From assembly GCA_963823665.1 (NCBI GenBank), contig CAWGMQ010000003.1, positions 1,434,388-1,498,387 on the forward strand: a stretch of 64,000 nt of DNA, written 5' to 3'. Shown here in pieces: positions 7,950-29,031 of the stretch (the stretch's first letter is position 1; each line of letters begins with the position of its first letter). Under the pieces are notes generated by a model. That model was not told where the DNA came from, ran no database searches, and saw only the letters and a program-made list of their open reading frames with translations. Source of the DNA: an uncultured Planctomycetota bacterium (GTDB lineage Bacteria > Planctomycetota > Planctomycetia > Isosphaerales > Isosphaeraceae). The position numbers were made by a program, and so were the translations under genes.

Positions 7950-8365
7950 CTCTACGCTACGCCGCTGCCGACTTGAATCGCCCGCGCGATGGTGGGCGTG
8001 GGCAACACGCCGATCGCTTCGTCGCTGGCGGCCTCAAACAAGGCGTCAACCAATGCTCCAGTCGGCGGCAGAATCGTCGTGGCCTCCGACGGTGGCACCG
8101 TCTGCGCGGATATTACTTTAGCCACGTCCGCGGCCGAGGGCAAGCGGCGCACGCCGGTCGCCAGGGTTTCGGCCATGAGGTCGGTGGGGGACGTGGTCGG
8201 ATCGAGATCGGAGAGCCCCAGCGTGTGGCCCAGCTCGTGCATCACGACCGTCAGCAAATCTTCATGCCCGGCGGCGACCATGGAGGGACCGGCCAGGAAG
8301 TCCCCCGGTGCCACGGGGTCTCCGGACGAGGTGCCGATCGACCAGCCGTAGCCGGCAGCATTCGC
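7950..8365. repeat. copy A of a ~415-bp duplicated segment (3' coding end of the giant gene)
   Basis: Near-identical to 14360..14775 (gctacgccgctgccgacttgaatcgcccgcgcgatggtgggcgt...); both translate to PGDFLAGPSMVAAGHEDLLTVVMHELGHTLGLSDLDPTTSPTDLMAETLATG... Confidence 0.85.
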
Positions 8366-11300
8366 GGAGAGATCCATGATGCTGCCGCCGATGGCGGTGC
8401 CGCCCAGGTAGCCGGCTGGAAGATTGGTGATCTGGACGGTGACGCCGCGCAGTTTGGCGACGTCCTGTTCGGGGAGTCCGGCGGCGGCCCAGTCATCGAT
8501 GGCGGCCGTGAGCACCGGGTCCAGCTCTTGCGGGGTGAGGGCCGAGGCGGCGCCGGGGCCTTCCCCGCCGGCGGCCAACTGCGGCGGCAGCGCCGGCAGC
8601 ACGGTGCCGATTTGCGGCCGGTAGAGCGTGAAGTCGGCCATGGTCACCGCGCCGTCGCCGTTCATGTCGTCGAACATGTTGTAGGTATTCGCCGGGGTCT
8701 CGTGCCGGAGGATCAGGACACCGTCGGTTGTATTGACCACGCCGTCGTCATTCACGTCGCCGGGCAGGACGTCGAGTTGCCCCGTGAAGGTGATGATCTG
8801 GGAGCTGCTGATCGTGATCGTCACAAGGTCTGGGCCCGCGATGGCTTTGTCGAACGTGATGAGGATGCTGGACGTCCCCGACCCGGAGATGCTAACCGGG
8901 CCGTAGTTGCCGCCGGTGATGCCTGTGACGCTGACATCGGCGGGAGTCAGCGTGGCGGCCTGGGCGAGAACAATCGCGATCCGGTTGATGTTGAACCAGG
9001 GCAGGTCGGTGGTGCGCCCGGCCGGAAGCAGCAGGCCGCCACCGGCGGTATAGAGCGGGGCGGTCTGCGAGCCCCAGTCGACCGAGACCCCGGAGACGGC
9101 GATCGTCGCTCCGGTCACGGTCAGGGTGTCAGCCGGGCTCGTGACGTTGCCGAGCGACGCGCTGATATTCGACGTGCCGATTCCCACCCCGGTGGCCAGG
9201 CCCTGGCTGCCGGCGGTGTTCGAGATGGTCGCGACCGAGGTCGTGGCCGACGCCCAGGTCACCGTGCTGGTCAGGTTCCCGGTCGAGTTGTCCGAATACA
9301 TGCCGGTGGCCGTGAACTGCTGGGTTTCACCCTTGGGAACCGTGGGGCTGGCCGGTGTGACGGCGATTGACTCCAGGACGGCGGCACGGGCGTTGAGCGT
9401 CGTCGAGCCGGTGATGCCGTCATACTTGGCGGTGATCAAGGAGGTACCGGTCGCCGCGACCGCGGTGGCCAGGCCGCCGGTGGAGATGGTGGCGACCGAG
9501 GTCGTGGCCGACGCCCAGGTCACCGTGCCGGTCAGGTTCCCGGTCGAGTTGTCCGAATAGGTGCCGGTGGCCGTAAACTGCTGGGTTTCACCCTTGGGAA
9601 CCATGGGGCTGGCCGGTGTGACGGCGATCGACTCCAGGACGGCGGGGCTGGCGTTGAGCGTCGTCGAGCCTGTGATGCCGTCATACTTGGCGGTGATCAA
9701 GGAGGTGCCAGTCGCCGCGACCGCGGTGGCCAGGCCGCCGGTGGAGATGGTGGCGACCGAGGTCGTGGCCGACGCCCAGGTCACCGTGCCGGTCAGGTTC
9801 CCGGTCGAGTTGTCCGAATAGGTGCCGGTGGCCGTAAACTGCTGGGTTTCACCCTTGGGAACCATGGGGCTGGCCGGTGTGACGGCGATCGACTCCAGGA
9901 CGGCGGGGCTGGCGTTGAGCGTCGTCGAGCCTGTGATGCCGTCATACTTGGCGGTGATCAAGGAGGTGCCAGTCGCCGCGACCGCGGTGGCCAGGCCGCC
10001 GGTGGAGATGGTGGCGACCGAGGTCGTGGCCGACGCCCAGGTCACCAGGGTGGTGAGAGGCTCGGTCGAGTTGTCCGAATAGGTGCCGGTGGCCGTGAAC
10101 TGTTGGGTCAGACCCTTGGCGACACTCGGATCGGCGGGCGTCACCGCGATTGAGACCAGCGCGGGCGAGAACTGATAGGCGCCGAGATCCGGAAAATATG
10201 AACGCGTGATGCCGCGCTGATCGACGGTGATCCCGGTTCCGGCCTCTCCGGTTCTCGAGGGCCGCGGTGCTTTGCGTCTTCAGAGCGATCGTCTGTGTGT
10301 CCCCGCCGTTGCTGGCCAGCCCGCCCGCGAAATTCGGGTCGGTGCCCATAACCAGGTCACCGGGCGGCAAGCCGTTGGATCCCATGCCGTTGCCGTTGAG
10401 GGTGACGAGGTTATTGGTGCTGCCGGTCAAGGTGGGCGTGGTGGCGCCGGCGTTGGTGCTGGTGAAGAAGTCGGATACGGTCGTGGTCGCGTTCTGGCCG
10501 AGGATGCAGTTGATGAGCTGGGCCGCGGCGGTGCCGGTGCCGGTGTAGGGGCTGGTGTTGTTGCCGCCGTTGCTCTTGTCGCTCAAGACGTAGAGGTCGG
10601 TGCCGCCCTGGGCTGCGGTATTGCCGCTGAAGGTGACGAAGGTGGCGTCGACGCTGCCGTTGCGGGCGAAGACGGCGCCGCCGAGGCCTTCTCCGTCGCC
10701 GCTGCCGCCGCTGGGACCGCCGTAGGCGAAGTTGGCGGTAAAGGTGTCGTTGGTGAGGGTGATCGCGCCTTGGTTGCTGAAGATGCCCCCACCCATGCCG
10801 GCGCCGCCGCCGCCGCCGCCGCCGAAGCCGCCGGCGCCGGCGCTGGCGGCGCCGCCGCCGCCGCCGAAGCCGGCGCCGCCGGCGGCGTGCCGCGAGCTGG
10901 CGGCGCCGCCGCCGCCGCCGAAGCCGCCGGCGCCGCCGCCGCCAAAGCCGCCGCCGCCGCCGCCGCCGCCGAAGCCGCCGCCGCCGCCGTCATTGCGGAG
11001 GCCGCCGCCGCCGCCGCCGCCGAAGCCGCCGGCGCCGCCGGCGCCGTTGGCGCCGCCGCCGGCGCCGCCGTGGACTCCGCCCCCAGATTGGTCGTTTAAG
11101 GGCGCGTTGGCCCCGAGGCCGCCGCCGCCGCCGTCGTCGCCGTCGTCGCGGCCCAGCCCGCCCTGGGCCTCGTTGTTGGCGAAGGTGCACCCCTCAGCCG
11201 TGAAACTGCCGCCGTTATCAAAGACCGCGCCCCCCAACCCAGCCCCGCCGCCGCCGCCGCCGCGCCCGCCCCGCCGAGCGCATCGCCATCTTGCAGCGTC

Positions 11301-11752
11301 AGGTTTTCCAGGGTCAGCGAGCTGTCGCTGGCCACGGTGAACAGGCGCACCGAGCCGCCGCCGTCGATGACCAGCCCCGGTGCCCCGGAGCCGTCGATGG
11401 TGATGTTGGTGCCGTTGCCGCTGACGAAGTACGCCGTCGGGCCATACTCGGCGGCAGCCGAGTTGGCCTCGCTGCTGGAGGTGAACATGATCGTGGAATT
11501 GGCGGGAATGCTGAAGGTGATCACGGCCGGCTGGGTGCCGGCGATGGCCTTGCCAATTTCGTAGCCGAGACTGCCGCTCGTGGTTGCTGAGGGACTGGTG
11601 TTGGTCACCATGTAGCTGAGCAAGCAGCGCTCTTCCAGCCGCTCCAGAAAGCGCTGGGCGGTGCGACGCCCGCGGCGCACGGGCGGCTTGCTCGGGCCTG
11701 GCGAGGAGCGGAACAGCGTTTTGAGCGTGGTCAGGGGCGTGCGGCGCGGCAT
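7952..11752 (-). CDS. giant secreted multidomain protein split over 3 frames by apparent frameshifts (~11230-11290 and ~10260-10280)
   Basis: N-term MPRRTPLTTL...RRGRRTAQRFLERLEERCLLS (planctomycete motif). Pmp-like GGAVF/FxxN repeats around poly-Gly tracts: LGGAVFDNGGSFTAEGCTFANNEA, GGAVFARNGSVDATFVTFSGNTA. Five ~87-aa Ig-like repeats (ESIAVTPASPMVPKGETQQFTATGTYSDNST...) and dockerin-like DVNDDGVVNTTD / DMNGDGAVTMAD. C-terminal HELGHTLGLSD zinc-binding motif. Confidence 0.6.
9300..10082. repeat. three tandem 261-bp units (two identical, one near-identical) encoding 87-aa Ig-like domains inside the giant gene
   Basis: Plus-strand ORFs 9561..9821 and 9822..10082 give identical 86-aa translations and 9300..9560 is near-identical; more diverged copies flank on both sides (~9039-9299 and 10083-10150). 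Confidence 0.85.
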
Positions 11753-11854
11753 GATTCATCTCCGGTGTGTTCTGTTCTCGGATTCGCACGACGATCGAGG
11801 CGGTGAATACTCCAGGTCAAGTCAGGGCCGCGCCACGGTGGCACGGCGGTCCCG

Positions 11855-14289: not shown

Positions 14290-14775
14290 TCCGGCGACTT
14301 CTTGCCCGGCCGATTTTTTGTTCCGAAGAAATACTAGCTGCGTCCCGGTTTCGGTTTCCGCTCTAGCGCTACGCCGCTGCCGACTTGAATCGCCCGCGCG
14401 ATGGTGGGCGTAGGCCACACGCCGATCGCTTCCTCGCTGGCGGCCTCAAACAAGGCGTCAACCAATGCGCCTCTCGTCGGGAGAATCGTCGTGGCGGCCG
14501 GCGGTGGCACGGCCAGCGCGGCTATTACTTTAGCCACGTCCGCGGCCGAGGGCAAGCGGCGCGCGCCGGTCGCCAGGGTTTCGGCCATGAGGTCGGTGGG
14601 GGACGTGGTCGGATCGAGATCGGAGAGCCCCAGCGTGTGGCCCAGCTCGTGCATCACGACCGTCAGCAAATCTTCATGCCCGGCGGCGACCATGGAGGGA
14701 CCGGCCAGGAAGTCCCCCGGTGCCACGGGGTCTCCGGACGAGGTGCCGATCGACCAGCCGTAGCCGGCGGCATTC
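14290..14775. repeat. copy B: a ~60-bp 3'-flank motif fused directly to the ~415-bp duplicated coding segment
   Basis: 14360..14775 matches 7950..8365; 14298..14358 matches the 3' flank of the PEP-CTERM gene (7028..7097, gaaatacta..cgtccc.gtttc...ccg.ctc). Confidence 0.75.
14334..14726 (-). pseudogene. orphan C-terminal metzincin-like domain fragment, a partial duplicate of the giant gene's 3' end
   Basis: 130-aa translation almost identical to the last 125 aa of the 7952..10144 ORF; no upstream domains. Confidence 0.5.
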
Positions 14776-15960: not shown

Positions 15961-16312
15961 TAGGATCGAGGCGGAGTTCTCGCAGCTCCGAGGGCGCCAG
16001 CGATCCGTCAGACTGCCGTTCCAGAGGATGGAAGAGTTTGATTCGGGCCGCCGTGATCTTGATGGGCGAGCGCAATCCGGATGCGCTCAATTCCATCTTG
16101 GCGTCCGTCGCGATAAGGCGATCCACGACGCAGTCGTAGTCGACCTCGTGAGCGCGAATCGTCCACTGGTCACGTTGGCCAGGGGGTTTCGTCTGATCTT
16201 CACGCACGACGACGTTGCCTTTGAAGCGAATCGTCATCGGCCAGTCGCTATCTACTTGCAGCGTTTGAGCGTCGCGGTCGCTCGCCGGCCGTCCGACATA
16301 TCCCGTGCTCAC
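15938..16312 (-). CDS. hypothetical protein (weak OstA/LptA-like beta-jellyroll resemblance)
   Basis: MTIRFKGNVVVREDQ...WTIRAHEVDYD. Confidence 0.2.
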   Translation of the reverse strand: MSTGYVGRPASDRDAQTLQVDSDWPMTIRFKGNVVVREDQTKPPGQRDQWTIRAHEVDYDCVVDRLIATDAKMELSASGLRSPIKITAARIKLFHPLERQSDGSLAPSELRELRLDPIKTVSDD

Positions 16313-18254: not shown

Positions 18255-18743
18255 ATGGAATACAAAGGCTACACGGGCATTCCCTTCATCGACGAAGAAT
18301 CGGAGTCTCTCTATGGGCACGTGATCGGACTTCGCGACGTCATCACTTTCCACGGCGACAACTTCGCCGAGTTGACGCAGTCATTTCGCGATTCAGTCGA
18401 CGACTACCTGGACTTTTGCAAGTCGCTCGGCCGGTCCCCGGAAAAGCCGTTCTCTGGTCGGTTTCTACTGCGGATTCCCCCGGAGCTCCATCGCGCGCTG
18501 TCAATCGCTGCCGAGTCAAAGGGAATGAATCTGAACTCGCTGATTCTGGAGAAACTTCAATCGTTCCGAAATGAATTCGGGTACTCCAAATTATCGGAGA
18601 GATCCGAGCAATTGGAAGCGGATCAACCCCGGCGCCGGAAGCGAAGGATTTTGCCCGTCGGATCGCTGGATCGATCGTCCGAGCTCGCTGGGAAGTCAAA
18701 GGCTCGTAAGAAGAGCACAAAGGACCGCGCCGGCGAGCGATGA
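18255..18743 (+). CDS. hicB: HicB-family antitoxin (type II TA), no HicA partner detected
   Basis: MEYKGYTGIPFIDEESESLYGHVIGLRDVITFHGDNFAELTQSFRDSVDDYLDFCKSLGRSPEKPFSGRFLLRIPPELHRAL matches HicB with C-terminal RHH; the C-terminal tail after ~aa 110 is of uncertain extent. Confidence 0.65.
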   Translation: MEYKGYTGIPFIDEESESLYGHVIGLRDVITFHGDNFAELTQSFRDSVDDYLDFCKSLGRSPEKPFSGRFLLRIPPELHRALSIAAESKGMNLNSLILEKLQSFRNEFGYSKLSERSEQLEADQPRRRKRRILPVGSLDRSSELAGKSKARKKSTKDRAGER

Positions 18744-18923: not shown

Positions 18924-18976
18924 ATCGGGTGATTCACTACAAAGGTCATAACGAGAAGGCTCGGAGGCGAGGGGTT

Positions 18977-19384
18977 ATGGGAGCGCGGCGGCGGACTCCG
19001 CGGCTGAGTGCGGGGGAGATGGAGATCATGGCGATGCTCTGGGAGCATGGGGAGCTGACGCTCTCGTCGGCCCATCAGGCTCTGGGTCGACCGATCGGAT
19101 ATACGACCGTGCAGACGCGGCTGAACCGCCTGGTCGAGAAGAGAGTCGTCACCCGGTCGACCGGGCGCCCTGCACAATATGCCGCGGCGGTGAGCGCGCT
19201 CGACGTCGGTACCCGGCACCTGGATCTGCTCCTGGAGCGGATCAGGGGGTTCAAGATCGTTCCACTGGTAGCCCACCTGGTTCGGGATCGCCGGCTAACC
19301 GCCGAGGAAATTCGCGAGCTGAAGCGATTGATCGGTCAAGCGGAGGCGTCGAACCAGGGCCGGGGCAGGGAGAGGAAAACGTGA
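18977..19384 (+). CDS. BlaI/MecI/CopY-family transcriptional repressor
   Basis: LSAGEMEIMAMLWEHGELTLSSAHQALGRPIGYTTVQTRLNRLVEKRVVTR winged helix; ATG 18977 with GGAGG RBS. Confidence 0.8.
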   Translation: MGARRRTPRLSAGEMEIMAMLWEHGELTLSSAHQALGRPIGYTTVQTRLNRLVEKRVVTRSTGRPAQYAAAVSALDVGTRHLDLLLERIRGFKIVPLVAHLVRDRRLTAEEIRELKRLIGQAEASNQGRGRERKT

Positions 19385-19413: not shown

Positions 19414-20804
19414 ATGCTGCGCACGACCGGGGTGCTTGCAGTCTCCGTCCTGGTTGCTCGAGCGTTGCTCGGCCGGCGGCGCCCGGTGGCGCCCTCGCTG
19501 TGGCGCATCGCCTGCGTTCTGTCGCTCCTTCAGGGCGTACTGATCGTGCGGTTCTCCGTGCCGCTGCCGTGGGCCGGGCACGTGATGTCGTCCGCCGTGC
19601 CCGCGCCAACGTCGTTCACGAACGCCGAACGCGTGGTCCCGCCCGATCCGGCGCCTCCAACCGCTTCGTTGTCCGAGCGCGGCAACGGGACGGGACGAGC
19701 ATCGAACGCGGCTTCGCCGGCGAGGGGTGCAGGGCAAGAGCCATGAGTCGATCGAGCTGGAGTGACCTGGCGCGAGTTCGTCGTGGCCGGATGGCTCGCC
19801 GGCATCGTGGGGCTGGTGGCCACACTGCTCATCGGGTACGTTCGATTCGCATTGGGTCTGCGGACGAGACCGCCCGACGAGGGGGCGTGGTCCGACGAGT
19901 GGTCAGCATTGCTTTTGGAGCGAGGCATCCGCCAGCCGATTCCGCTCCGGGTCACTGACCTACAGGGACCGATGCTTTGCCGGCTACCCGCCGGATATCG
20001 ATTGATTGTGCCGGCGCGGCTATGGAGAAGTCTCAACGCCGCTGAGCGCCGGGCGATCCTTTTGCATGAGCTGGCACACTACACACGGGGCGATCTGTGG
20101 AAGTCGCTGGCGATCCGCGCTCTTGCGCTGCCGCACTGGTTCAACCCGTTCGCCTGGTGGGCGGTACGTACCTTCGACGAGTGCGGTGAATGGGCCTGCG
20201 ACGACGACGCCACGGGTGTCGAGCCGAGCGCGGCCACCACTTATGCCCGAGCGTTGTTCCAGCTCGCGGAGACGGGCGACCGACGGCGATCGTTCGGATT
20301 CTCAGCGCGTGGCTCGTCGCTGGCGGCGCGGGTGCGGCGGCTGATGCAACCGAGACGCGCTTCCGAACCGATCCGTACTCGATTGATTGTCATGGGTCTA
20401 TTGATCGCTCTGGCGACGGCTCAAGTGCTCCGCCCCGAGTTGGCGGCCGCGCCATTGGCTCGCCCGACCTCAGCGACTCGATCCATCTCTGGGAAATTGC
20501 CACGGGCAAAGACCTTCGGCAGTTCCCGGGCGAGCCGGCCGAAAAGCGGGGAGATATCCGCATCGTCAACGCGCTGTCGTTCACTGCGGACGGACGTATT
20601 TTGATTTCCGGCGAGGAGAACGGCTCGATCGTGATCTATGATGCTTCGAACGCGGCGGTGCGGGCGACTCTGCGCGGGCACAAGAATAGTGTGCGTGCCG
20701 TATGTGTCTCGACGAACGGCAAACGGCTGGTGTCGGCGAGCACGGATCTGACGGCGCTCGTTTGGGACCTGGCGGGGGTGATCGAGGGGCGCTGGGGCAA
20801 TTGA
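19414..20804 (+). CDS. BlaR1-like M56 metallopeptidase fused to C-terminal WD40 repeats; interrupted by an in-frame TGA (19744-19746) and a frameshift (~20400-20470)
   Basis: TM-rich N-term (19414..19746), LLHELAHYTRGDLW HExxH motif (19762..20604), WD40 repeats (RATLRGHKNSVRAVCVSTNGKRLVSASTDLTALVWDL) in 20190..20804. Confidence 0.6.
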
Positions 20805-21152
20805 TGCCTCAACGATGTTTCGTGGGCTTGCTTTCAAATCGAGCAAGAGATCGACACGCTTCCGCCGGTGCCGACCGGCTATTTGCCGGTGACTCAACGA
20901 GGCTGGGGCATCGAGGCGATTCAACTTCCCACGCTACAGCGGAAAATCGTTCGGCCGGCAGCGCCGGAGAACAGCCATGACTGGGCCTTGGCCCATGCCG
21001 AGAGTGGCCCCGATTCCACGGGGCGAATCGCCTACGTCGAAGACCATTTCTTTGTCGAGCACGAAACGGACTGGCGGCACCTTTTACGGACGATCCGGCG
21101 CCGGTGAGCTCATCGCGCACGGGCACTCGTGCGGTTCAACCGCGAGCGCGCC

Positions 21153-21203
21153 GCAGAGCGGCACGGCGCACGTTCCGACGCGGGAGCGTCGGAACGAGGG
21201 GGA
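21153..21203. repeat. copy 1 of a ~50-bp palindromic repeat (core GTTCCGACGC-GGGA-GCGTCGGAAC, 10-bp stem)
   Basis: gagcggcacggcgcacgttccgacgcgggagcgtcggaacgaggggg read directly. Confidence 0.6.
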
Positions 21204-21469
21204 GCCGCGGCTTGGGCATCACGCGAGGATCGCTGCCGGGCCTGGATCGCTGCGGACGGGATCGACCCTGTGGATTGTGAGGATTCATCGGGCTGCGGCT
21301 TTCACAGAAACTTAGAAGGCTTTAGCAAACGCGGAGTTTTGGACGACGTTCTTAATAAGGCGACGCAGGCAAGCTTGATAAGGGCTGACGAGGCTGAGCT
21401 TTCCTGGGCTGTTCGGTGTTGAAAAGAGCTGTTTTCTCAGCGAAATGAAGTGAACGGGAGAGAATCATC

Positions 21470-23137
21470 ATGGTGAGCGAAGCCAAGATTGCGGCGAACC
21501 GCAGGAACGCCACAAAAAGCTGCGGGCCCAAAACCGAAGCCGGTAAGAAAATCGCCCGATTCAATGCACTCACGCATGGAATGACAGCTGAAATTGCGAT
21601 GTTGCCGGAGGAGGATGCGGCGGTTTATGAATCGCGCCGGAGGGACTGGTTCGAGCAGTACAAGCCGCGGAATGGTGTGGAAGCGGCCAAGGTTGAACGG
21701 AGTTTTTACTTGTGGTGGCAACTCGGGCGGATCGGACGTGCACAGTCGGCGCAGCTCTGTGAGAAATCCCGGACGGCGGAGAGTGAACGGCTGGCGAGTG
21801 AAGCCAGAGAGACGATCGAGCTGTCGATCAAGCTCTTTCTGCCGACCCCGGAGGCTCGCTGGGGGACTGCGGAGAATTCGACGCGCGACCGAGGTTTTGA
21901 GCATCCCGCACTGATCGAGAGCCGGCTGGAAGAACTGGAGGACGGCTGCCGGTGGCTTCACGCGCAGTGGAAGGAGGAAGCCGCGATTCTGGACGCAGGC
22001 AAAGCTTGGGGGGCGATCGAGTGTTTCAAGGCGATCAGGCTGATGGGAATGCATGTCCTCTCGGCTATCGATCTCAACGAGGTGGCCGATTTCCTGCGGC
22101 CGTGCGTGGCACTGGCCGGAAAGGGAATCGGGCTGGCGAGGGAAACATGGACGCTGCTTGCTCCGCCCGATGCCGAGCGAGGTTGGGAGGTCGTGCGCGG
22201 GCAGTTGGAACCATGTGACGCGCTGCCCATGTGCGCGGAAGAAGCGAGGGAATGGTTACGCGAGACAGTCGAAACGCAGATCGGGCGGCTGGCCGAGAAA
22301 ATCGAGGAGCACGAAAGCGTCGCCGAGGTCCTCGGGACACTGGCGCGTGACCTGCATGCTTTCGACTGGAGCCCTCTCGCCGAGCGGACGCGACGGTACG
22401 AGCGGGCCTGTCAACGAACCGTCGACCGAATCGATCGCGAGCTCGAAACACGGCCTTGGCTGTCGTCTGAGCAATTCGTGCCGGCATCGACTTTGAACCG
22501 GAGGCTCACCCCGAGCTTGGTGCAATCCATGCGTGCGAGGTTAATGGCGGGTGATGCGATCGGCGCAGCCGACGACGAGGACGAAGAAGAAGTTGGGCGG
22601 CAACGAAACGAAGCCAACGGGGACGACGGAGTTGAATCGACGATGAACTTCGTCGATGACGGGCGGACGCATGTTTGCGAAGCCGAGGGCGACACCCCTG
22701 GCAGGCACGAATTAACGATGAATTATGGCGATACGGCCGCTCGACGAAACGAAGCCAACGGGCATGAGCGGTCGGGAGAAGCGCCGCGACGAAACGAAGC
22801 CAACGGGGACGACGAAGCGTCGCCCTTGATGCGACGAAACGAACCCAACGGGAGGGAGGACGGTTCAGTCGCAACGATTGACGGGTTTGAGAGGTCGAAG
22901 GTCGCCGACGGCTCGCGCGGCGATGGTACCTCGTCCGAAGAAACAAGTGACGAAACACCGCAACAATCGACTGACCTCGCGTGTGAGACCCAGGCTGGGG
23001 CGGTCGAGAGGCGCCAGGTGGGCTCGGCGACGGTGACACGATTCAGCCTGGCTGCGGGTGTGAAGGGAAGCAGGGCCGATTCGCGCCGTGAGCGGCGTGC
23101 GCGGCGGCGGCGGGAAATGCGGCAGCGAAACCGCTGA
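21470..23137 (+). CDS. hypothetical hydrophilic protein (555 aa) with C-terminal degenerate tandem repeats (RRNEANGDD...)
   Basis: ORF track; DNA repeat cgacgaaacgaagccaacgg occurs 4 times at ~22600-22850; AT-rich upstream region; no TM or signal peptide. Confidence 0.5.
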   Translation: MVSEAKIAANRRNATKSCGPKTEAGKKIARFNALTHGMTAEIAMLPEEDAAVYESRRRDWFEQYKPRNGVEAAKVERSFYLWWQLGRIGRAQSAQLCEKSRTAESERLASEARETIELSIKLFLPTPEARWGTAENSTRDRGFEHPALIESRLEELEDGCRWLHAQWKEEAAILDAGKAWGAIECFKAIRLMGMHVLSAIDLNEVADFLRPCVALAGKGIGLARETWTLLAPPDAERGWEVVRGQLEPCDALPMCAEEAREWLRETVETQIGRLAEKIEEHESVAEVLGTLARDLHAFDWSPLAERTRRYERACQRTVDRIDRELETRPWLSSEQFVPASTLNRRLTPSLVQSMRARLMAGDAIGAADDEDEEEVGRQRNEANGDDGVESTMNFVDDGRTHVCEAEGDTPGRHELTMNYGDTAARRNEANGHERSGEAPRRNEANGDDEASPLMRRNEPNGREDGSVATIDGFERSKVADGSRGDGTSSEETSDETPQQSTDLACETQAGAVERRQVGSATVTRFSLAAGVKGSRADSRRERRARRRREMRQRNR

Positions 23138-23186
23138 TGATGCGAACCGGAATCAATAACATCCGAAGTTCGACGGTTTGGACGCC

Positions 23187-23237
23187 ACGGAGCGGCACGG
23201 GGGCCGTTCGGACGCGGGAGCGTCGGAACGAGGAGTC
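23187..23237. repeat. copy 2 of the palindromic repeat
   Basis: gagcggcacgggggccgttcggacgcgggagcgtcggaacgaggag. Confidence 0.6.
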
Positions 23238-23282
23238 GGCGCGCGCTGTGGAGTTTGTCGGGAAATCAACCGTTTGCACGCG

Positions 23283-23333
23283 GCGGAGCGGCACCGGAGA
23301 CCGTTCCGACGCGGGAGCGTCGGAACGAGGGGG
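23283..23333. repeat. copy 3 of the palindromic repeat
   Basis: gagcggcaccggagaccgttccgacgcgggagcgtcggaacgaggggg. Confidence 0.6.
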
Positions 23334-23712
23334 GGTGGCTCTTTATTGCTGTATCAGTTCCATTCAGTCCCATTTCTCGAATGGCCAAAAAGACATGTCT
23401 GGAGAAGCTCGCGTGAGAGCACAAGCCGAACCTGGATTCGGGAATGCCTCGGGGCAATTCGATCCGTGCGTGGGCGCGGGGAAATCGTCAGGCTAAAGCC
23501 TGACCTACCTCGAGCAGACGAGTGCGGGGGTTGGGGCTTCGCGAACGGCTCCGATTATTAGGGGAAGGTTGCGGGACAAACCAGCGGCTTTGGCGGGCGT
23601 CTTGGTGCATACTTGAATTTGAGATTGACGTCTGCGGGGGTTGTTGCGCGCTTCCCGGCCGGGCTGACCCGGCGAGGGGGAGTTGATCTCGCCGGGATTG
23701 AGGTGCGGCCAG

Positions 23713-26700
23713 ATGGCGGATTCGAGTCCCAGCAAATGGCGGAGGGTCAGGACCCCCACCGTTCTGCAAATGGAGGCGGCGGAGTGCGGAGCCGCTGCGC
23801 TGGGGATCGTCCTGGAGTTTTACGGCCGGTATATCCCCCTCGACGTGCTGCGCGACGATTGCGGCGTCTCGCGCGACGGCAGCAACGCGTTTTACATCAA
23901 AGAGGCGGCCAAGAGATACGGTCTGGAAGTCAAAGCGGGGCGGAAATCGGCCGAGGGGATACGATCCTGGCGGCCTCCGATCATTGCGTTCTGGCAGTGG
24001 AACCACTTCCTTGTGGTCGAGGGATTCGGGCATGGAAAGGTCTACGTGAACGATCCCGCCAGCGGCCGGCGGACGATGGGGTTCGAGGAGTTCCGGGAGG
24101 GATATTCGGGGATCGCGTTCACGTTCGAGCCTGGACCGCAGTTCGTCAAGCAAGGACGACGTCCGAGCATATTCCGCGGTCTGGCCAGACGACTGGCGAG
24201 CTCGCGGGTGGCGATTGTTTTCGTCGTGCTGGCCGGGCTGGCGCTCGTGATTCCCAACCTGGTGACGGCGGCTTTTCAGCGAGTGTTCATGGACGAGATC
24301 CTCATTCAGGGGCATCACAACTGGCTGAGGCCGCTGCTTGTGGCCATGGCACTGACGGCCATCCTGCGGGTTGCGGCGGCCGCGCTCCAGCAGTTGTACC
24401 TGACGCGGTTCGAGGTGAAGCTTTTGCTCGAAGAGTCGCTCAAGTTCCTGGGACACGTGCTGCGGTTACCGCTGGTCTTCTTTCAACGGCGATATACGGG
24501 CGATCTGGTGGCGCGCGTTTCGAGCACGGCACGCGTGGCCGCGCTGCTCTCGGGCGAGCTGGCGACGACGGCCGTCAGTTTGCTGACGCTGGTGGCTTAT
24601 GTCGCGGTGATGCTGCCTTATGAGCCGCTGCTGGCGATTGTGGGGCTCTTGATCAGCAGCTTGAATCTTGTTGCGCTCAAGATGTTCAGCCGCTGGAGGA
24701 GCGACCAGAACCGGGTGATCGAGCAGATACGCGGCAAGCTGCTGGCGGGGATCATGGGGGCGATCCAGATCGTCGAGAGCATCAAGGCGACCGGATCCGA
24801 GTCGGAAATGCTGGTGCGCTGGACGGGCGACCAGGCGCGAATGATCAACGCGGAACAAGTCCTTGGGGTTTACGACACGCTGCTGTTCGTGATTCCGCCG
24901 CTCCTGGCGAGCCTGACGACGATCGTGGTGCTGGGCCTGGGCGGCCACCAGGTCATGGCCGGCGGCCTGGGCATTGGCGTGCTGCTGGCGCTTCAGGCGC
25001 TGCTGGCGGGGTTCAATCAGCCATTCCTGGATCTGGCCCGACTGGGAGCCGACGTGCAGGAGCTGCGGGCCGATCTCGATCGGATCGACGACGTGCGGAA
25101 CCGGCCGATCGACCCGGTGTATGCACTGGCGGGGCAGATCACGGCGGTCTCCGGGGCAAGCGAGGCGGCGCGGGCGGCCGCGGCGCGGCACCGGCTCTCA
25201 GGGCACATCGAGTTTCGCAACGTCACGTTCGGGTACAACCGGACGGTCGAGGAGCCATTGATCCACGATTTCTCATTTGTTGCTATTCCTGGCCAGCGGA
25301 TTGCGCTTGTGGGCTCTTCGGGCAGCGGCAAATCGACGATCGGCCGGCTGGCGATGGGGCTGTATCAACCATGGAGCGGCGAGATTCTCTACGATGGCCA
25401 TCGGCTCGCGGAGATTCCTCGCGAGGTGTTCGTGAACTCGGTGCTGCTGGTTGACTCGGAGATTTGCCTGTTCGAGGGGACGGTGCGCGACAACCTGACG
25501 CTCTGGGATGATTTTGTTCCGATGGCGCGGCTGACGCAGGCGGGGGTGGAGGCGGCGATTCACCGCGATCTGCTTCAGCGGCGGGGCGGTTATGGCGCGG
25601 CTGTCAGCGAGGCGGGACGGAACTTTTCGGGCGGGCAGCGGCAGCGTCTTCAAATCGCGCGGGCGATTGTGCGGGAACCGAGCCTGCTCGTGCTGGACGA
25701 GGCCACGAGCGCGCTTGATCCGCGAACCGAGCGAATCGTCGACGACAACCTCCGCAGGCGAGGCTGCACCTGCTTGATCATCGCCCACCGGCTGACGACG
25801 ATCCGGGACTGCGACGAGATCATCGTCTTGAATGCAGGGCGAGTGGTGCAGCGCGGCACGCACGATGAGCTGATCGCGGATAGCGCGGGTGAGTATGCGC
25901 GGCTGCTTGCTTTTCAGGTGCTACCGGGGGTGCGGCACGGACGGTTTTCGTGGAGAAGGAGTCGAGCGGCCCAGACGATCGTTCCGGTGGAGAGCCGAAT
26001 CGAGATCGCCGGGAACTCGGCGGGGGGCCATGTGGAGCCGGTCGCGGTGCCCAGGGTGGTGGCGGGTGGAGAGCAGACGGATTCGCCGCGGTTCATCGTG
26101 GAGGAGCTGCTGCCCTACAGCCAGCCGGAGAGCACGGCGGCGAATCGTCCGCTTTCGCTTGACGATCCCGAAGCGGTCTGGTGGGTCTCATCCGGCGGGG
26201 TCGACGTGTTTTTCACACAGTTTGAGCCGGGTGCGCCGGAAGGGAACAGGCGGCATTTGTGCCGGGTGGAGGAAGGGGGCTCGATCTTCGCGATCAGCGG
26301 GGTTCGCGGCCGGTTGGGGAGTGGGCTGGTGGCCGTCGGGGCGGGGCCGGCTCAGCTTCTCAAGTTCGCCCGGGGTGATTTGATCCGCCTGAGCTTCGAG
26401 GAGGGGCTTTCCGAGCAAGTTGCGGTTCTGGTCGACGATTGGCTGCTGCGAGTCGGCCGCGCACTGGGGCGACTCGCGGGAATCGAAGGTTATCGCGAGC
26501 TTGAGTGGGACACTTGCACGGACCTCGATCGGGAGGTGCGGTTCGGTGTGCGCCAGGGAGTGGGCTGGGTGCGGCAGCTTAGCGGGAGCTCGTGGTTTCT
26601 GGATGAGGTTCCGGTTCCGGTGTCGGAGCTGGAGGCGAGGTTTCCCTTGAGCGAGAACCTCTGGCTCAAGACGACGAGCGAGGGCAGGGTTACTGCGTGC

Positions 26701-29031
26701 GACACGGCGACGATGATTCGCAGCAGCGATCCCTGGGCGGGCCTGGACGAGTTTCACCGGACGATGCTCGACTACATTTCCGGATTCGAGGACGAGCAAT
26801 CGCGCACGGGGTGGACCGAGTTCCGGCGATCGATGGAGCATGAGAACGCGCTCGTCGAATCGGTGACGACGGAGCTGGCGGCGGTGGCGACCGATTCGGC
26901 GATCTCGCCGATTGATCCCGGCGGAGACGCGCTCGTGACGGCGTGCCGCACGGTGGGCCAGGCGCTGGGGATCGAGGTTCGCGCGACCCGGACTGGTGGC
27001 CCGGATGGAACAGGGCCGTCGAGCGACCCGCTGGGAGACCTGGCGCGCGCCTCGGGTTTTCACGTGCGGCCGGTGACGCTTCCACCGGACTGGTGGCGCC
27101 AGGGCGGAAGCGAGCCGCTCCTGGGCCGAATGGCGGATTCCGGTGGTGTGCCGGTCGCGCTTGTCCCGGCGAAGGGCCGCGTGCCATGGGCCAAGCCTGT
27201 CTACAATCTATACGACCACGAGGGCCGGAGGCGGCCCGTCGACCTGCGGCTGGCGGAGAAGCTGGATTCGCGAGCGTGGGCCATTTACCGCACGCTGCCG
27301 GATGAGCCGCAGCGGAAGCTCGACCTGTTTCGGTTCAGCTTGAGTCTGCCGGGACTGGCGCGCGAGCTCTGGATGGTGATCTTGATGGCGCTCGTGGCGG
27401 CGATCCTGGGGTTGTCGATCCCGATCGCGGCGGGAATCCTGGTGGACCAGGTCATTCCGGAGGCCGATCGCGAGGGCCTGGCGGTGATGTGCGTTTTCCT
27501 GGTCGTCCTGGCCTTCTCGGCTGCGGCGTGCCGCGTGATTCAGGGGCTGATGGTGCTGCGCGTGGAAGGGAGGGTGTCGTCGACGATCATCCCGGCCGTC
27601 TGGGACCGATTGCTGCGGCTGCCGACGGGTTTCTTCGCAAGGTTCAGCTCCGGTGATCTGGCGTTTCGCGCGATGGAATTCAGCAAGGTTTTCAAGAAGG
27701 TGTCCGGGGCGACGGTCACCACCTTGATGATGGGTTTGTTCGCCTTGTTCAATCTGGGCCTGCTTTTCTTCTATAGCTGGAGGATGGCGCTGTGCACCAC
27801 GTTCCTGGTGGGCTTGATGCTCGCGGTGACGGGCTTTCTGCTGGCGGGTCTCTTGCGGTACGGGAATTCGATCCACCGGATCGACGGCGTGATCTCGGGG
27901 CTATTGCTGGAGCTGCTGGGTGGAATTGTCACGCTGCGAACGGCGGGTGCGGAACGGCGTGCGTTTTCCCGGTGGGCCAGCCGATATACGGAGCGTCTGG
28001 TGCTCTCGATCCAAGGGAGACGGATTGCGAACCGGTTGCATCAATGGCTGGCGGTCTATCCGATTCTCACAGCGATGTTCGTGTATGTGGGAGCGCTATA
28101 CCTGGACACGGGGTTGTTGAAAACAGGGAGTTTCCTGGCGTTTTCGATCGCGTTTGCGAACTTGATGGCTGCGATCCTGGCGGTGGGATATAGCTCGATG
28201 GGGCTGCTCGATCTGCTGCCGACGTTCGAGCGGCTCAGGCCGATACTGGAGGAGCGCCCGGAGTTTGCAGCGGCGGTGATCGAGCCGGTGCGGCTGTACG
28301 GGGCGATCTCACTCAACCACATCTCATTTCGCTATCCGGGCCAGGACCAGGGGACGAAGGTGCTGGACGACGTGAGCCTTCAGGTCCGGCCGGGTGAATT
28401 CGTGGCGATTGTCGGGCCATCGGGGGCGGGAAAATCGACCTTGATGCGGCTGTTGCTCGGGTTCGAGACGCCAGATGCCGGGTCGGTGACCTATGACGGC
28501 CGAGAGCTGACGACGCTCGACTTGCGGGACGTGCGGCGTCAGATCGGCGTGGTCTTGCAGCAAGCCCAGCTTCTACCCACGGACATCGTGGGCAACATCA
28601 TCGGGTTTGCGCCGCTGCTCAACATCGACGACGCGTGGGAGGCCGCGCGGCTGGCGGGCCTGGAGGAAGACATCCGGCGGATGCCAATGGGGATGCATAC
28701 CCTGGTCGGGGAAGGCGGAGGAAACCTGTCGAGCGGTCAGCGGCAGCGCTTGCTGATTGCGCGGGCGATCGTGCGGCGGCCGAGGATTCTACTGCTCGAC
28801 GAAGCGACCAGCGCACTCGATAACGCCACGCAGGCTATTGTGAGCGACAGCCTGACGAACCAGCTTCGGGGCATCACGCGGGTGGTGATCGCGCACCGGC
28901 TCGACGTGGTCGTGAAGGCCGATCGCATCTACGTGCTGAAGGACAGCCGGATCGTTCAATCCGGGCCGTATCACCAACTGCTGGAGGAGTCAGGACCGTT
29001 CCGAGAGCTGGCGCGGCGGCAGATGCTGTGA
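23713..29031 (+). CDS. single-chain NHLM/NHLP-type bacteriocin export ABC transporter: C39 peptidase, TMD1-NBD1, ~400-aa accessory middle domain, TMD2-NBD2
   Basis: C39: QMEAAECGAAALGIVLEFYG...WNHFLVVEGF. NBD1: GSSGSGKST, FSGGQRQRLQIARAIV, LLVLDEATSALD, IIAHRL. NBD2: GPSGAGKST, LSSGQRQRLLIARAIV, ILLLDEATSALD, VIAHRL. Two 6-helix TMDs; one uninterrupted 1,772-aa frame. Confidence 0.85.
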   Translation: MADSSPSKWRRVRTPTVLQMEAAECGAAALGIVLEFYGRYIPLDVLRDDCGVSRDGSNAFYIKEAAKRYGLEVKAGRKSAEGIRSWRPPIIAFWQWNHFLVVEGFGHGKVYVNDPASGRRTMGFEEFREGYSGIAFTFEPGPQFVKQGRRPSIFRGLARRLASSRVAIVFVVLAGLALVIPNLVTAAFQRVFMDEILIQGHHNWLRPLLVAMALTAILRVAAAALQQLYLTRFEVKLLLEESLKFLGHVLRLPLVFFQRRYTGDLVARVSSTARVAALLSGELATTAVSLLTLVAYVAVMLPYEPLLAIVGLLISSLNLVALKMFSRWRSDQNRVIEQIRGKLLAGIMGAIQIVESIKATGSESEMLVRWTGDQARMINAEQVLGVYDTLLFVIPPLLASLTTIVVLGLGGHQVMAGGLGIGVLLALQALLAGFNQPFLDLARLGADVQELRADLDRIDDVRNRPIDPVYALAGQITAVSGASEAARAAAARHRLSGHIEFRNVTFGYNRTVEEPLIHDFSFVAIPGQRIALVGSSGSGKSTIGRLAMGLYQPWSGEILYDGHRLAEIPREVFVNSVLLVDSEICLFEGTVRDNLTLWDDFVPMARLTQAGVEAAIHRDLLQRRGGYGAAVSEAGRNFSGGQRQRLQIARAIVREPSLLVLDEATSALDPRTERIVDDNLRRRGCTCLIIAHRLTTIRDCDEIIVLNAGRVVQRGTHDELIADSAGEYARLLAFQVLPGVRHGRFSWRRSRAAQTIVPVESRIEIAGNSAGGHVEPVAVPRVVAGGEQTDSPRFIVEELLPYSQPESTAANRPLSLDDPEAVWWVSSGGVDVFFTQFEPGAPEGNRRHLCRVEEGGSIFAISGVRGRLGSGLVAVGAGPAQLLKFARGDLIRLSFEEGLSEQVAVLVDDWLLRVGRALGRLAGIEGYRELEWDTCTDLDREVRFGVRQGVGWVRQLSGSSWFLDEVPVPVSELEARFPLSENLWLKTTSEGRVTACDTATMIRSSDPWAGLDEFHRTMLDYISGFEDEQSRTGWTEFRRSMEHENALVESVTTELAAVATDSAISPIDPGGDALVTACRTVGQALGIEVRATRTGGPDGTGPSSDPLGDLARASGFHVRPVTLPPDWWRQGGSEPLLGRMADSGGVPVALVPAKGRVPWAKPVYNLYDHEGRRRPVDLRLAEKLDSRAWAIYRTLPDEPQRKLDLFRFSLSLPGLARELWMVILMALVAAILGLSIPIAAGILVDQVIPEADREGLAVMCVFLVVLAFSAAACRVIQGLMVLRVEGRVSSTIIPAVWDRLLRLPTGFFARFSSGDLAFRAMEFSKVFKKVSGATVTTLMMGLFALFNLGLLFFYSWRMALCTTFLVGLMLAVTGFLLAGLLRYGNSIHRIDGVISGLLLELLGGIVTLRTAGAERRAFSRWASRYTERLVLSIQGRRIANRLHQWLAVYPILTAMFVYVGALYLDTGLLKTGSFLAFSIAFANLMAAILAVGYSSMGLLDLLPTFERLRPILEERPEFAAAVIEPVRLYGAISLNHISFRYPGQDQGTKVLDDVSLQVRPGEFVAIVGPSGAGKSTLMRLLLGFETPDAGSVTYDGRELTTLDLRDVRRQIGVVLQQAQLLPTDIVGNIIGFAPLLNIDDAWEAARLAGLEEDIRRMPMGMHTLVGEGGGNLSSGQRQRLLIARAIVRRPRILLLDEATSALDNATQAIVSDSLTNQLRGITRVVIAHRLDVVVKADRIYVLKDSRIVQSGPYHQLLEESGPFRELARRQML

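What the first reader, a model, noticed from the sequence alone, without database searches (positions are those of the whole stretch)
21150..23335. Three copies of a ~50-bp hairpin repeat (10-bp perfect stem GTTCCGACGC/GCGTCGGAAC) bracket the hypothetical gene 21470-23137
The unit gagcggcac-N8-cGTTCCGACGCgggaGCGTCGGAACgagg occurs once ~270 bp upstream of the gene (21153-21203) and twice in tandem, ~95 bp apart, immediately downstream (23187-23237, 23283-23333). The copies differ by 1-3 substitutions, one in a stem position (C to G in copy 2). All three lie in AT-richer, apparently non-coding DNA. The arrangement of one repeat, a gene, then repeats resembles a cassette or REP/BIME-like extragenic palindrome family. 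It sits directly upstream of the fused bacteriocin exporter gene.
Basis: seen in the sequence. Interest (0 to 1): 0.55.

Follow-up and report, generated by a model that had tools for sequence, protein, structure and literature searches.

The report
REP-type hairpin repeats flanking a planctomycete gene
The three hairpins are real copies of a two-hairpin "REP" repeat, a small DNA parasite found in many bacterial phyla and copied by a dedicated transposase, and here they mark the ends of a 2.1-kb gene block that sits at different places in related genomes.

Summary
Three same-strand copies of cGTTCCGACGC-GGGA-GCGTCGGAACgagg lie at 21171-21199, 23205-23233 and 23302-23330 (0.01 expected by chance). 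Each is preceded by a small GCCGC-nGA-GCGGC hairpin.

They are not gene-specific and not integron attC sites. The same core, with compensatory stem variants, NGGA loops and a 3' GAG tag, occurs in Ignavibacteria, Bacteroidota, Anaerolineae, Planctomycetota and Gammaproteobacteria. In five loci, inverted copies flank a REP-associated tyrosine transposase (RAYT; four score 92-101 bits on NCBIfam NF047646, cutoff 80; the fifth gene is degraded). So this is a planctomycete variant of a widespread, barely described bipartite REP family.

What is unusual locally is the arrangement. All copies are direct. The homology between the window and a relative (88.7% over 2106 nt) starts at the 5' edge of one unit and ends at the 3' end of another. 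This block lies next to tRNA-tuf in most relatives but next to a bacteriocin-type exporter here. That suggests movement mediated by the REP units, but does not prove it.

The bracketed gene belongs to a very large unannotated protein superfamily. No RAYT lies in the window.

Verdict: a new member of a known kind, of moderate interest.

The parts
21136..21203 (+). REP unit w1. It comprises a 5' extension (TCAACCG...), small hairpin h1 GCCGC-AGA-GCGGC (21150-21162), an 8-nt spacer, the 11-bp hairpin h2 cGTTCCGACGC-GGGA-GCGTCGGAACg (21171-21196), and the tail/tag GAGG.
   Evidence: It is the left end of the block colinear with L019.
21204..21469 (+). Conserved non-coding leader of the bracketed gene. 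The core GGACGACrTTyTTAATAAGGC and GCTTGmTAA are invariant in six loci.
   Evidence: 73% mean column identity; long invariant runs.
21470..23137 (+). Bracketed gene of 555 aa. It has an N-terminal motif AANRRNAxKSxGPKTxxGK..NAxxHG, an all-alpha domain to about residue 330, a disordered tail with RRNEANG repeats, and an Arg-rich C-terminus. It has no Pfam, NCBIfam, PADLOC or PHROG family.
22601..22852 (+). Four intragenic copies of CGACGAAACGAAGCCAACGGG (the RRNEANG repeats). The 16-mer GAAACGAAGCCAACGG is invariant at the nucleotide level in all orthologs.
   Evidence: (D12).
23164..23237 (+). REP unit w2. h1 is GCCAC-GGA-GCGGC (23184-23196, one mispair). h2 is at 23205-23230 with a C-to-G change that breaks one stem pair. 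It is the right end of the blocks colinear with L019 and L020.
23261..23333 (+). REP unit w3, in tandem 97 nt after w2. h2 at 23302-23327 is perfect and identical to w1 over 32 nt. The h1 region (23280-23292) is not self-complementary.
   Evidence: (D14).
23487..23504 (.). A second, unrelated palindromic repeat, GTCAGGCT-AA-AGCCTGAC. It also occurs near the orthologous genes in L016, L017, L019 and L021. It is not part of the REP unit.

Best explanation
The three units are copies of a bipartite REP (repetitive extragenic palindrome) element. Each has a small 5-bp hairpin, an 8-nt spacer, an 11-bp GC-rich hairpin with an NGGA loop, and an unpaired 3' GAG tag. The family is spread over several phyla. 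Its cognate enzyme is a RAYT, a single-copy HUH/Y1 transposase of the type with NHLH, WQ and YIHNNP motifs and about 178 aa. These motifs match Quentin et al.'s subclass 2.6, which equals Bertels' group 5.

By analogy with E. coli TnpA-REP and IS200/IS605 TnpA, the enzyme would recognise the hairpin and tag on one strand of single-stranded DNA and cut and rejoin there. That would explain why the core stays identical between genomes while neighbouring copies decay. This step is inferred.

The window's units are a lineage-specific variant: the inner stem is GACGC/GCGTC rather than the common CACGC/GCGTG, and h1 is GCCGC/GCGGC. They colonised the flanks of one gene in an ancestor of this planctomycete subclade and were inherited with it.

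The units are direct repeats at both ends of the gene, and the shared block ends exactly at them. I therefore infer that they also served as the breakpoints when the block was copied or moved from its ancestral place next to tRNA-tuf to the present place upstream of the exporter. The mechanism would be either RAYT cleavage at two same-strand hairpins or recombination between REP copies.

In the transcript, the downstream hairpins would form very stable 3' stem-loops that may stabilise or end the mRNA. This last point is untested.
For: (1) Family. A genome-collection scan with the 20-nt stem found 15 loci. Nine of them, from Ignavibacteria, Bacteroidota, Anaerolineae and Planctomycetota, share the c-stem-loop-stem-GA(G) context.

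(2) Abundance and covariation. Of 153 hits, 150 have both variable pairs complementary (CC/GG 122, CG/CG 26, GC/GC 2). Loops are AGGA, GGGA, TGGA or CGGA in 106 hits. Unit L021u carries an A-T to G-C double change.

(3) Bipartite structure. 49 of 148 unique hits have a perfect 5-bp hairpin 4-14 nt upstream, mostly 8-11 nt, against 5.3 in shuffles. Stems are GACGC (22), GCCGC (10, the window's type) and others.

(4) RAYT link. L013, L120, L103 and L147 (Salinivibrio kushneri plasmid NZ_CP114587.1) score 100.6, 101.4, 92.3 and 92.2 bits on NCBIfam NF047646, REP-associated tyrosine transposase (cutoff 80). Each, and a degraded fifth gene (L102), has family hairpins immediately flanking it with tags outward, on both sides except L102, where only the upstream copy is seen. 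All 9 inverted pairs in the metagenome loci have the same minus-then-plus arrangement. [quoted passage not shown]

(5) Constraint. The 32-nt core is identical between the window and L016, whose orthologous coding DNA is 65.6% identical. Sister copies in L016, L019 and L020 are decayed.

(6) Block. Window 21139-23234 aligns with L019 9663-11761 in one piece (88.7% over 2106 nt) that starts and ends at REP units. Window versus L020 ends at the same unit. The contexts differ: DUF4058 | block | tRNA-tuf in L016 and L019 (L021's short contig shows only the DUF4058 side); BlaR1-like | block | C39-ABC exporter in the window; PhyH downstream in L020; glycosyltransferases and FAA hydrolase in L017.
Against: No RAYT lies in the 64-kb window or in any planctomycete locus fetched, and the source genome could not be scanned. 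So cognate-enzyme presence and genome-wide copy number are unknown for this lineage.

The window has only three copies in 64 kb, all at one gene. That is far sparser and more clustered than classical REPs.

The copies are direct, not the inverted doublets (REPINs) thought to be the mobile form, although six direct pairs exist among the metagenome loci.

The tag is GAG/CTC, not the GTAG or CGTC of the described superfamilies (PMC3733652).

More distant orthologs of the gene (L018, L022) have no units, so the units are dispensable for the gene.

Relocation through the REP units is inferred from breakpoints only. No empty site was found: L148 has a different paralog at that position.
Confidence: 0.75

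Rival explanations
1. The hairpins are gene-specific cis-regulatory RNA structures. They would be 5' and 3' UTR hairpins of the 555-aa gene, for example binding sites for its own Arg-rich product or for a global RNA-binding protein that reads GGA in hairpin loops.
For: All copies are on the gene's sense strand. The 1-upstream plus 2-downstream layout recurs in L016, and a 2+1 layout in L019. The units travel with the gene to new loci. Loops are strand-specifically NGGA. The protein has basic termini.
Against: The same hairpin occurs next to unrelated genes in other phyla that lack any homolog of the gene. It also occurs elsewhere in L016 (3947) and L007. Orthologs in L018 and L022 have none. 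Orthologous copies are allowed to decay. In L019 the upstream units lie in a divergent intergenic region about 280 nt before the conserved leader. There is no Rfam match.
Confidence: 0.1
2. The block is an IS200/IS605-like or PATE-like transposable unit. The same-strand hairpins would be its left and right ends and the 555-aa gene its cargo or an unrecognised transposition protein.
For: Same-strand subterminal hairpins at both ends match IS200/IS605 architecture (PMC6006769). Homology breakpoints lie within about 10 nt of the units. The block occurs in at least four contexts. The gene family is very large, at 16,002 clusters, and patchy.
Confidence: 0.1
3. The units are integron attC sites and the gene is an integron cassette (a CALIN-type array).
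For: The superficial layout of gene followed by palindromic repeats fits, and there are two repeats in tandem downstream.
Against: The hairpins are perfect 11-bp stems with 4-nt loops. They are not 60-140-nt imperfect palindromes with R''/L''/L'/R' boxes and extrahelical bases. No GTTRRRY lies at the boundaries. A unit also sits 5' of a 270-nt conserved leader. No tyrosine recombinase turned up among the neighbouring ORFs scanned. The neighbours are ordinary chromosomal genes.
Confidence: 0.02
4. The hairpins are simply transcription terminators or insulators between the gene and the next operon, with no mobile-element origin.
For: Positions are 25-50 nt after stop codons (21107 and 23137). 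In relatives they stand between the gene and the tRNA-tuf promoter. The stems are very stable.
Against: No T/U tract follows any copy, and the consensus scan finds 0 terminators in 20800-23800. Termination does not explain a 20-nt stem sequence shared across phyla, the GAG tag, or the flanking of RAYT genes.
Confidence: 0.03

Closest known systems
REP / REPIN elements with their RAYT (TnpA-REP) transposases: E. coli REP/BIME with YafM, and Pseudomonas REPINs
   Same: Both are short GC-rich extragenic stem-loops with an unpaired tag next to the stem foot. Both have many dispersed copies. Inverted doublets exist in a fixed arrangement (9 of 9). A single RAYT gene is flanked by inverted copies, forming a REPtron. 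Perfect 'master' copies sit alongside decayed ones.
   Different: The tag is GAG on the 3' side (CTC on the other strand), not a 5' GTAG. The unit is bipartite, with two hairpins sharing a CGC-NGGA-GCG apex. Nearly the same 20-nt stem is shared across phyla, whereas classical REP families are genus-specific. In the window the copies are direct, few, and all beside one gene.
'Atypical secondary structures' flanking subclass 2.6 (Bertels group 5) RAYT genes (Quentin et al. 2018, PMC6006769; Bertels et al. 2017, PMC5581495)
   Same: The RAYTs found here next to the hairpins have the subclass 2.6 signatures NH[LIV]H, WQ and YIH[QN]NP and the median length of about 179 aa. That paper reports flanking structures with copies elsewhere in the genome. 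Bertels reports flanking 16-mers with about 31 replicon-wide occurrences.
   Different: Those papers do not give the sequence in searchable text and describe the subclass as mostly Bacteroidetes. Here the family is seen in Ignavibacteria, Anaerolineae, Planctomycetota and Gammaproteobacteria too. Assignment to 2.6 rests on motifs only, not on a phylogeny.
CGTC-tagged REP superfamily (Di Nocera et al. 2013, PMC3733652)
   Same: Both have 4-5-nt loops and T/A pairs near the stem foot. A tag variant CCTC is mentioned there. That superfamily occurs in Chlorobi and Bacteroidetes. Intragenic units are allowed.
   Different: CGTC REPs have 8-9-bp stems and a CCA tail and, per that paper, no associated transposase. 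Here the stem is 10-11 bp, the tail is GAG(G) and RAYT genes are flanked. The figures with the consensus sequences could not be read, so identity is untested.
IS200/IS605 ends and their non-autonomous derivatives (PATEs)
   Same: Both carry hairpins on the same strand at both ends of a segment. The enzyme class (HUH/Y1) acts on single-stranded DNA.
   Different: The block has no transposase inside, a variable number of end units, and the synteny of a host gene.

Membership tests
REP / REPIN-RAYT system | Short (about 20-40 nt) GC-rich palindrome that folds into a stable stem-loop | tested here: met
   An 11-bp perfect stem with a 4-nt loop in w1 and w3, and one mispair in w2.
REP / REPIN-RAYT system | Conserved unpaired tag at the stem foot (GTAG or CGTC in the described superfamilies) | tested here: inconclusive
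   A tag is present and conserved: GAG follows the stem in all three window copies, and GA(G) follows the stem in nine of the 15 unselected genome loci. The metagenome pattern specified GAG, so those hits cannot test it. But the tag is neither GTAG nor CGTC.
REP / REPIN-RAYT system | Cognate RAYT gene flanked by inverted copies of the repeat (REPtron) | tested here: met
   Met for the family in five loci from other organisms: L013, L120, L103, L102 (upstream copy only) and L147. NF047646 scores are 92-101 bits for the four intact genes. Not testable for the window's own genome; the window holds no RAYT.
REP / REPIN-RAYT system | Many dispersed, mostly extragenic copies within one genome | not testable with these tools
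   The source genome is not in the collections (one search did not return the window). The window has 3 copies in 64 kb, all at one locus. L016 has a fourth copy 6 kb away. Thiodictyon and Salinivibrio plasmids hold 1-7 places each.
REP / REPIN-RAYT system | Inverted doublets (REPINs/BIMEs) as the common arrangement | tested here: not met
   In the window all three copies are direct. In the family at large there are 9 inverted pairs, all minus-then-plus, and 6 direct pairs.
Integron attC / gene cassette | attC of 60-140 nt with R''-L''...L'-R' boxes (RYYYAAC...GTTRRRY) and extrahelical bases | tested here: not met
   The sequence shows perfect short hairpins with no such boxes at the boundaries.
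Integron attC / gene cassette | IntI tyrosine recombinase and attI nearby, or an array of promoterless cassettes each ending in attC | tested here: not met
   Pfam scans of 20 neighbouring ORFs (between about 4.4 and 39 kb of the window) show BlaI, BlaR1-M56/WD40, HicB, an ABC exporter, an SPFH protein and others, but no recombinase. The gene has its own 270-nt conserved leader and a unit on its 5' side.
IS200/IS605 family or PATE | Subterminal hairpins on the same strand at both ends | tested here: met
   w1 and w2/w3 are all on the + strand. Homology to L019 ends at the units.
IS200/IS605 family or PATE | Encodes TnpA (Y1) and/or TnpB, or is a short non-coding derivative present in several near-identical copies | tested here: not met
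   The 555-aa protein has no Pfam, NCBIfam or PHROG match. Copies in different genomes are 66-89% identical.
Intrinsic (Rho-independent) terminator | GC-rich hairpin directly followed by a T/U tract | tested here: not met
   No terminator-like site was found in 20800-23800. The tails are GAGGGGG, GAGGAGT and GAGGGGG.
Any curated RNA family (Rfam 15) | Match at or near the gathering score | tested here: not met
   No hit at gathering in the whole window. The best sub-threshold hit is 23 bits against a gathering score of 52.

The most novel reading that the evidence does not exclude
Two same-strand REP units can act as the ends of a translocatable unit that carries a host gene. The 2.1-kb block REP-leader-gene-REP would have been excised from its ancestral site beside tRNA-tuf and re-inserted upstream of the bacteriocin-type exporter. 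The mechanism would be RAYT cleavage at two hairpins or REP-REP recombination through a circle. At the new site it would have replaced a resident, only 27%-identical paralog (compare L148). REP/RAYT systems, regarded as domesticated and non-cargo-carrying, would then be able to shuffle members of a very large uncharacterised gene superfamily. The invariant in-frame 16-mer GAAACGAAGCCAACGG, which resembles the REP tail, could be a further nucleic-acid-level signal of the same system.
Probability: 0.2. Interest if true: 0.65.

Novelty: new member of a known kind. Interest (0 to 1): 0.38.

Why it matters
REP elements and their RAYT transposases have been studied almost only in Gammaproteobacteria. 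There each genus has its own REP sequence, and the mobile form is thought to be an inverted doublet.

This locus leads to a REP family with an almost invariant 20-nt stem, a second small hairpin and a GAG tag. The family is shared by at least five phyla or classes and is abundant in metagenomes, yet it has no searchable description. That makes it a candidate for testing how RAYTs recognise their substrates and whether such systems spread horizontally.

The local arrangement adds a testable idea: that REP units can delimit and move a host gene. On the practical side, recognising these units prevents false ORF calls. The hairpin reads as ...VPTRERRNE... and similar peptides, and it explains clustered breakpoints in planctomycete assemblies.

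Tried and rejected
- Rfam at gathering on the whole window and at E up to 10 on 20900-23700 gave nothing credible.
- There are no tRNA or tmRNA genes in the window, so no tRNA-linked integration here.
- Consensus promoter and terminator scans found none.
- attC/integron was rejected on architecture and on the absence of a recombinase.
- I tested the idea that the hairpin always accompanies the 555-aa gene. tblastn of the protein against the hairpin loci found it only in L014, and distant orthologs lack hairpins. Rejected.
- Context look-ups for the closest homologs P0001 and P0004 failed because they are not on record.
- I searched for an empty site through the exporter gene. L148 is syntenic from w23584 rightwards, but it carries a different paralog and a different left flank, so it is not a clean empty site.
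- Full-text searches for the stem sequences returned only unrelated primer hits.
- The window unit has no match in PLSDB plasmids.
- Six of the 15 genome-collection hits were set aside as other things that share the stem. Hydrogenovibrio and Piscirickettsiaceae carry tta...taacgggctgcggat flanks, and the Streptomyces, Geodermatophilaceae and Acidimicrobiaceae hits are single hairpins.
Full report
**1. Observation**

GTTCCGACGC-GGGA-GCGTCGGAAC occurs at 21172-21195 and 23303-23326 without mismatch. It occurs at 23206-23229 with a single C-to-G change in the 5' arm. All three are on the + strand. Shuffles of the window give 0.01 such hits.

- A C...G pair closes the stem, so it is 11 bp. GAGG follows every copy.
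- The repeated unit is longer than stated. About 35 nt upstream are also conserved: TCAAC..GCCGC-nGA-GCGGC-AC, then 8 nt.
- The large hairpin dominates the fold of either strand, as RNA or DNA. The 76-nt units 1 and 3 have z-scores between -2.2 and -6.6 across both strands. Mutated copy 2 folds less well.
GC is 0.67-0.72 there, and only the gene's leader is AT-richer.

**2. The hairpin is not private to this locus or to this gene**

A scan of one genome per species with the stem and a free loop returned 15 loci.

- Six are other things that share the stem by chance or belong to another repeat.
- Nine share the full context c-stem-loop-stem-GA(G), with NGGA-type loops in most. They come from Ignavibacteria, a Bacteroidota MAG, Anaerolineae and two Planctomycetota MAGs.
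- The same loci contain variants with compensated inner stems, such as GTTCCCACGG-AGGA-CCGTGGGAAC-GAG.

- Of 153 hits, 150 have both free pairs complementary.
- The dominant form is GTTCCCACGC-NGGA-GCGTGGGAAC-GAG (122 hits).
- The window's inner stem GACGC/GCGTC is rare, with 2 hits.

One third of the unique hits (49 of 148) have a perfect 5-bp hairpin 4-14 nt upstream, mostly 8-11 nt. Shuffles give 5.3. The stems are GACGC, GCCGC (the window's type), CACGC, AACGC, GGCGC and others. So the two-hairpin architecture of the window's unit is a property of the family, and the small hairpin also co-varies. The family also occurs on Thiodictyon and Salinivibrio megaplasmids.

**3. Link to a transposase**

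In locus L013 (an Ignavibacteriaceae MAG), two family hairpins in inverted orientation lie 30 nt before and 14 nt after a 180-aa gene. That gene scores 100.6 bits on NCBIfam NF047646, 'REP-associated tyrosine transposase' (cutoff 80).

- Homologs of this protein occur in four further loci that were brought in only by the hairpin: L120 (101.4 bits), L103 (92.3), L102 (a degraded gene), and the Salinivibrio kushneri plasmid gene annotated 'transposase' (92.2).
- Each gene has family hairpins immediately flanking it with the tags pointing outward, on both sides except in L102, where only the upstream copy is seen.
- A second Ignavibacteriaceae MAG (L015) has the same neighbours as L013, but its two hairpins are only 70 nt apart with no RAYT between them.
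- All nine inverted pairs among the metagenome loci have the same minus-then-plus arrangement. Six direct pairs also exist.
- The RAYTs carry NHLH, WQ and YIH(N/Q)NP and are about 178 aa. These are the signatures tabulated for subclass 2.6 (Bertels' group 5). [quoted passage not shown]
- Bertels et al. report moderately abundant flanking 16-mers for group 5 (PMC5581495).

On this evidence the hairpin is a REP element of a RAYT system. The kind is known. The sequence family itself has no description I could find in searchable text.

**4. The locus and its relatives**

The bracketed ORF (21470-23137, 555 aa) has no Pfam, NCBIfam, PHROG or PADLOC family.

- The word-indexed search found 19 homologs.
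- An exhaustive HMMER search with residues 1-360 found 16,002 cluster representatives at E up to 1e-3, and 1,929 at 1e-10.
- It is therefore a member of a very large, unannotated superfamily marked by the N-terminal motif ANRRNAxKSxGPxTxxGK..NAxxHG. That motif is present in 117 of 149 top representatives.

In most relatives the ortholog sits between a DUF4058 gene and the tRNA-Thr/Tyr/Gly/Thr-tuf-rpmG-secE-nusG cluster: L016, L018, L019, L022 and L023. L021's short contig shows only the DUF4058 side. This site is shared by orthologs only 40-42% identical, so it is the ancestral one. The window (BlaI and BlaR1-M56/WD40 upstream, C39-ABC exporter downstream), L017 and L020 have other neighbours.

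REP units accompany the gene only in the subclade nearest the window:

| Locus | Units upstream | Units downstream |
|---|---|---|
| Window | 1 | 2 |
| L016 | 1, degenerate | 2, 97 nt apart as in the window; a fourth copy lies 6 kb away |
| L019 | 2 | 1, degenerate |
| L020 | 0 | 1, degenerate |
| L021 | 1, with an A-T to G-C compensated pair | contig ends |
| L018, L022 | 0 | 0 |

The 32-nt core is identical between the window and L016, although their orthologous coding DNA is 65.6% identical. Sister copies at orthologous positions have decayed. Perfect masters alongside decaying copies is what a REP population maintained by an enzyme looks like. It is not what a strictly required cis-regulatory element looks like.

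**5. The block**

The window and L019 align in a single colinear piece: w21139-23234 with L019 9663-11761, 88.7% over 2106 nt.

- The piece begins at the 5' edge of unit w1 and ends at the GGAACGAGG of unit w2. Outside it the two loci are unrelated.
- The window and L020 align from the leader to the same end of w2.
- In L017 the homology stops just after the stop codon. A remnant of a unit is cut inside the loop of the small hairpin.
- A genome with an 82%-identical exporter locus (L148) is syntenic with the window only from w23584 rightwards. In the corresponding position it carries a different member of the same superfamily, 27% identical, without REP units.

The simplest reading is that a REP-leader-gene-REP block was copied or moved from the tuf site, with the REP units as breakpoints. 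Two mechanisms fit. One is cleavage by a Y1 enzyme at two same-strand hairpins, as at IS200/IS605 ends. The other is excision and re-integration by recombination between REP copies. This is inference from breakpoints. No circle, target duplication or clean empty site was seen.

**6. Alternatives**

- An integron cassette is excluded by architecture and by the absence of a recombinase.
- A classical terminator is excluded by the lack of a T tract.
- A gene-specific RNA element is unlikely given the distribution in section 2 and the dispensability in section 4. A secondary role of the 3' hairpins in mRNA stability or insulation from the tRNA-tuf promoter remains possible and untested.
- An autonomous or IS-like element is unlikely, because the gene behaves as a syntenic host gene in the deeper orthologs and has no transposase signature.

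**7. Left unexplained**

The RRNEANG repeats in the disordered tail are encoded by a 16-mer, GAAACGAAGCCAACGG. It is invariant at the nucleotide level in about 40 copies across all orthologs, including those 40% identical in protein, while the flanking codons vary.

- Related (R/Q)NE(A/P)(N/T) motifs occur in 42 of 149 distant family representatives.
- The 16-mer resembles the REP tail (GGAACGAGG).
- Whether this reflects a nucleic-acid-level signal is open.

**8. Verdict**

The finding is real and is a REP-type repeat. It is a planctomycete variant of a widespread bipartite family tied to RAYT transposases, so a new member of a known kind. The direct-repeat bracketing of a gene, and the exact coincidence of homology breakpoints with the units, give it some extra interest as a possible REP-bounded translocatable block.

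Noticed in passing
window 22601-22852 (also L016, L017, L018, L019, L020, L021, L022/L023): The 16-mer GAAACGAAGCCAACGG, which encodes RNEANG in the gene's disordered tail, is invariant at synonymous positions in about 40 copies. This holds across orthologs down to 40% protein identity, often with a 45- or 66-nt period. That suggests a DNA- or RNA-level constraint inside a coding region.
   Followed up: partly
window 21470-23137: The bracketed hypothetical protein belongs to a very large superfamily with no Pfam or NCBIfam model. It has 16,002 50%-identity cluster representatives at E up to 1e-3. The family is marked by the N-terminal motif ANRRNAxKSxGPxTxxGK..NAxxHG and often by C-terminal (R/Q)NE(A/P)(N/T) repeats.
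   Followed up: partly
window 21204-21469: A 270-nt leader upstream of the gene has long invariant runs, such as GGACGACrTTyTTAATAAGGC and GCTTGmTAA, in six loci whose proteins are as little as 55% identical to the window's. It could be a promoter or a structured 5' UTR. The consensus sigma-70 scan found nothing.
   Followed up: partly
window 23487-23504; L016 8622-8687; L017 8972-9016; L019 4589-4633 and 8562-8584; L021 146-196: A second, unrelated palindromic repeat, GTCAGGCT-AA-AGCCTGAC with conserved flanks, recurs near the orthologous genes in several genomes. It is probably another REP-like family of this lineage.
   Followed up: no
L148 7614-9612: L148 comes from a genome whose exporter locus is 82% identical to the window's. 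There, the position upstream of the exporter holds a different member of the same superfamily, 27% identical and split by a frameshift. This looks like paralog replacement at a fixed site.
   Followed up: partly
L013 2002-2636 versus L015 4968-5061: Two Ignavibacteriaceae MAGs share a locus upstream of an Fpg-like glycosylase gene. One has a RAYT between two inverted REPs. The other has the same two REPs only 70 nt apart with no RAYT. This is a natural presence/absence pair for a REPtron.
   Followed up: partly
window 19762-21107: The BlaR1-type M56 peptidase/WD40 gene upstream of the first REP unit is spread over three overlapping reading frames (19762-20604, 20190-20804, 20868-21107). Either there are frameshift errors in the assembly or it is a decaying gene. 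A BlaI-type repressor lies at 18929-19384 and a HicB antitoxin at 18255-18743.
   Followed up: no
window 23683-29031: The 1782-aa ORF contains two ABC_membrane and two ABC_tran stretches plus one C39 peptidase domain. An internal repeat (25603-25719 versus 28705-28821) is 73% identical. It appears to be two NHLP-type bacteriocin exporter subunits fused into one frame. In L148 the region is called as several genes.
   Followed up: no
L001, L003, L010 (Piscirickettsiaceae MAG, Hydrogenovibrio sp.): These gammaproteobacterial loci use the same 10-bp stem GTTCCGACGC/GCGTCGGAAC in a different repeat family. It has TTA...TAA extensions, TTGY loops and a conserved 3' flank, taacgggctgcggat. This looks like convergence on, or distant kinship with, the REP family described here.
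   Followed up: no
window 7955-8254 versus 14367-14666; 9222-10164; 10640-11280: Other repeats lie in the window. There is a 300-nt segment duplicated 6.4 kb apart at 95% identity. There are four 261-nt tandem repeats inside a Big_2/dockerin protein gene. There is also a long GCC/GGC-rich low-complexity tract on the minus-strand ORF 9942-11789.
   Followed up: no
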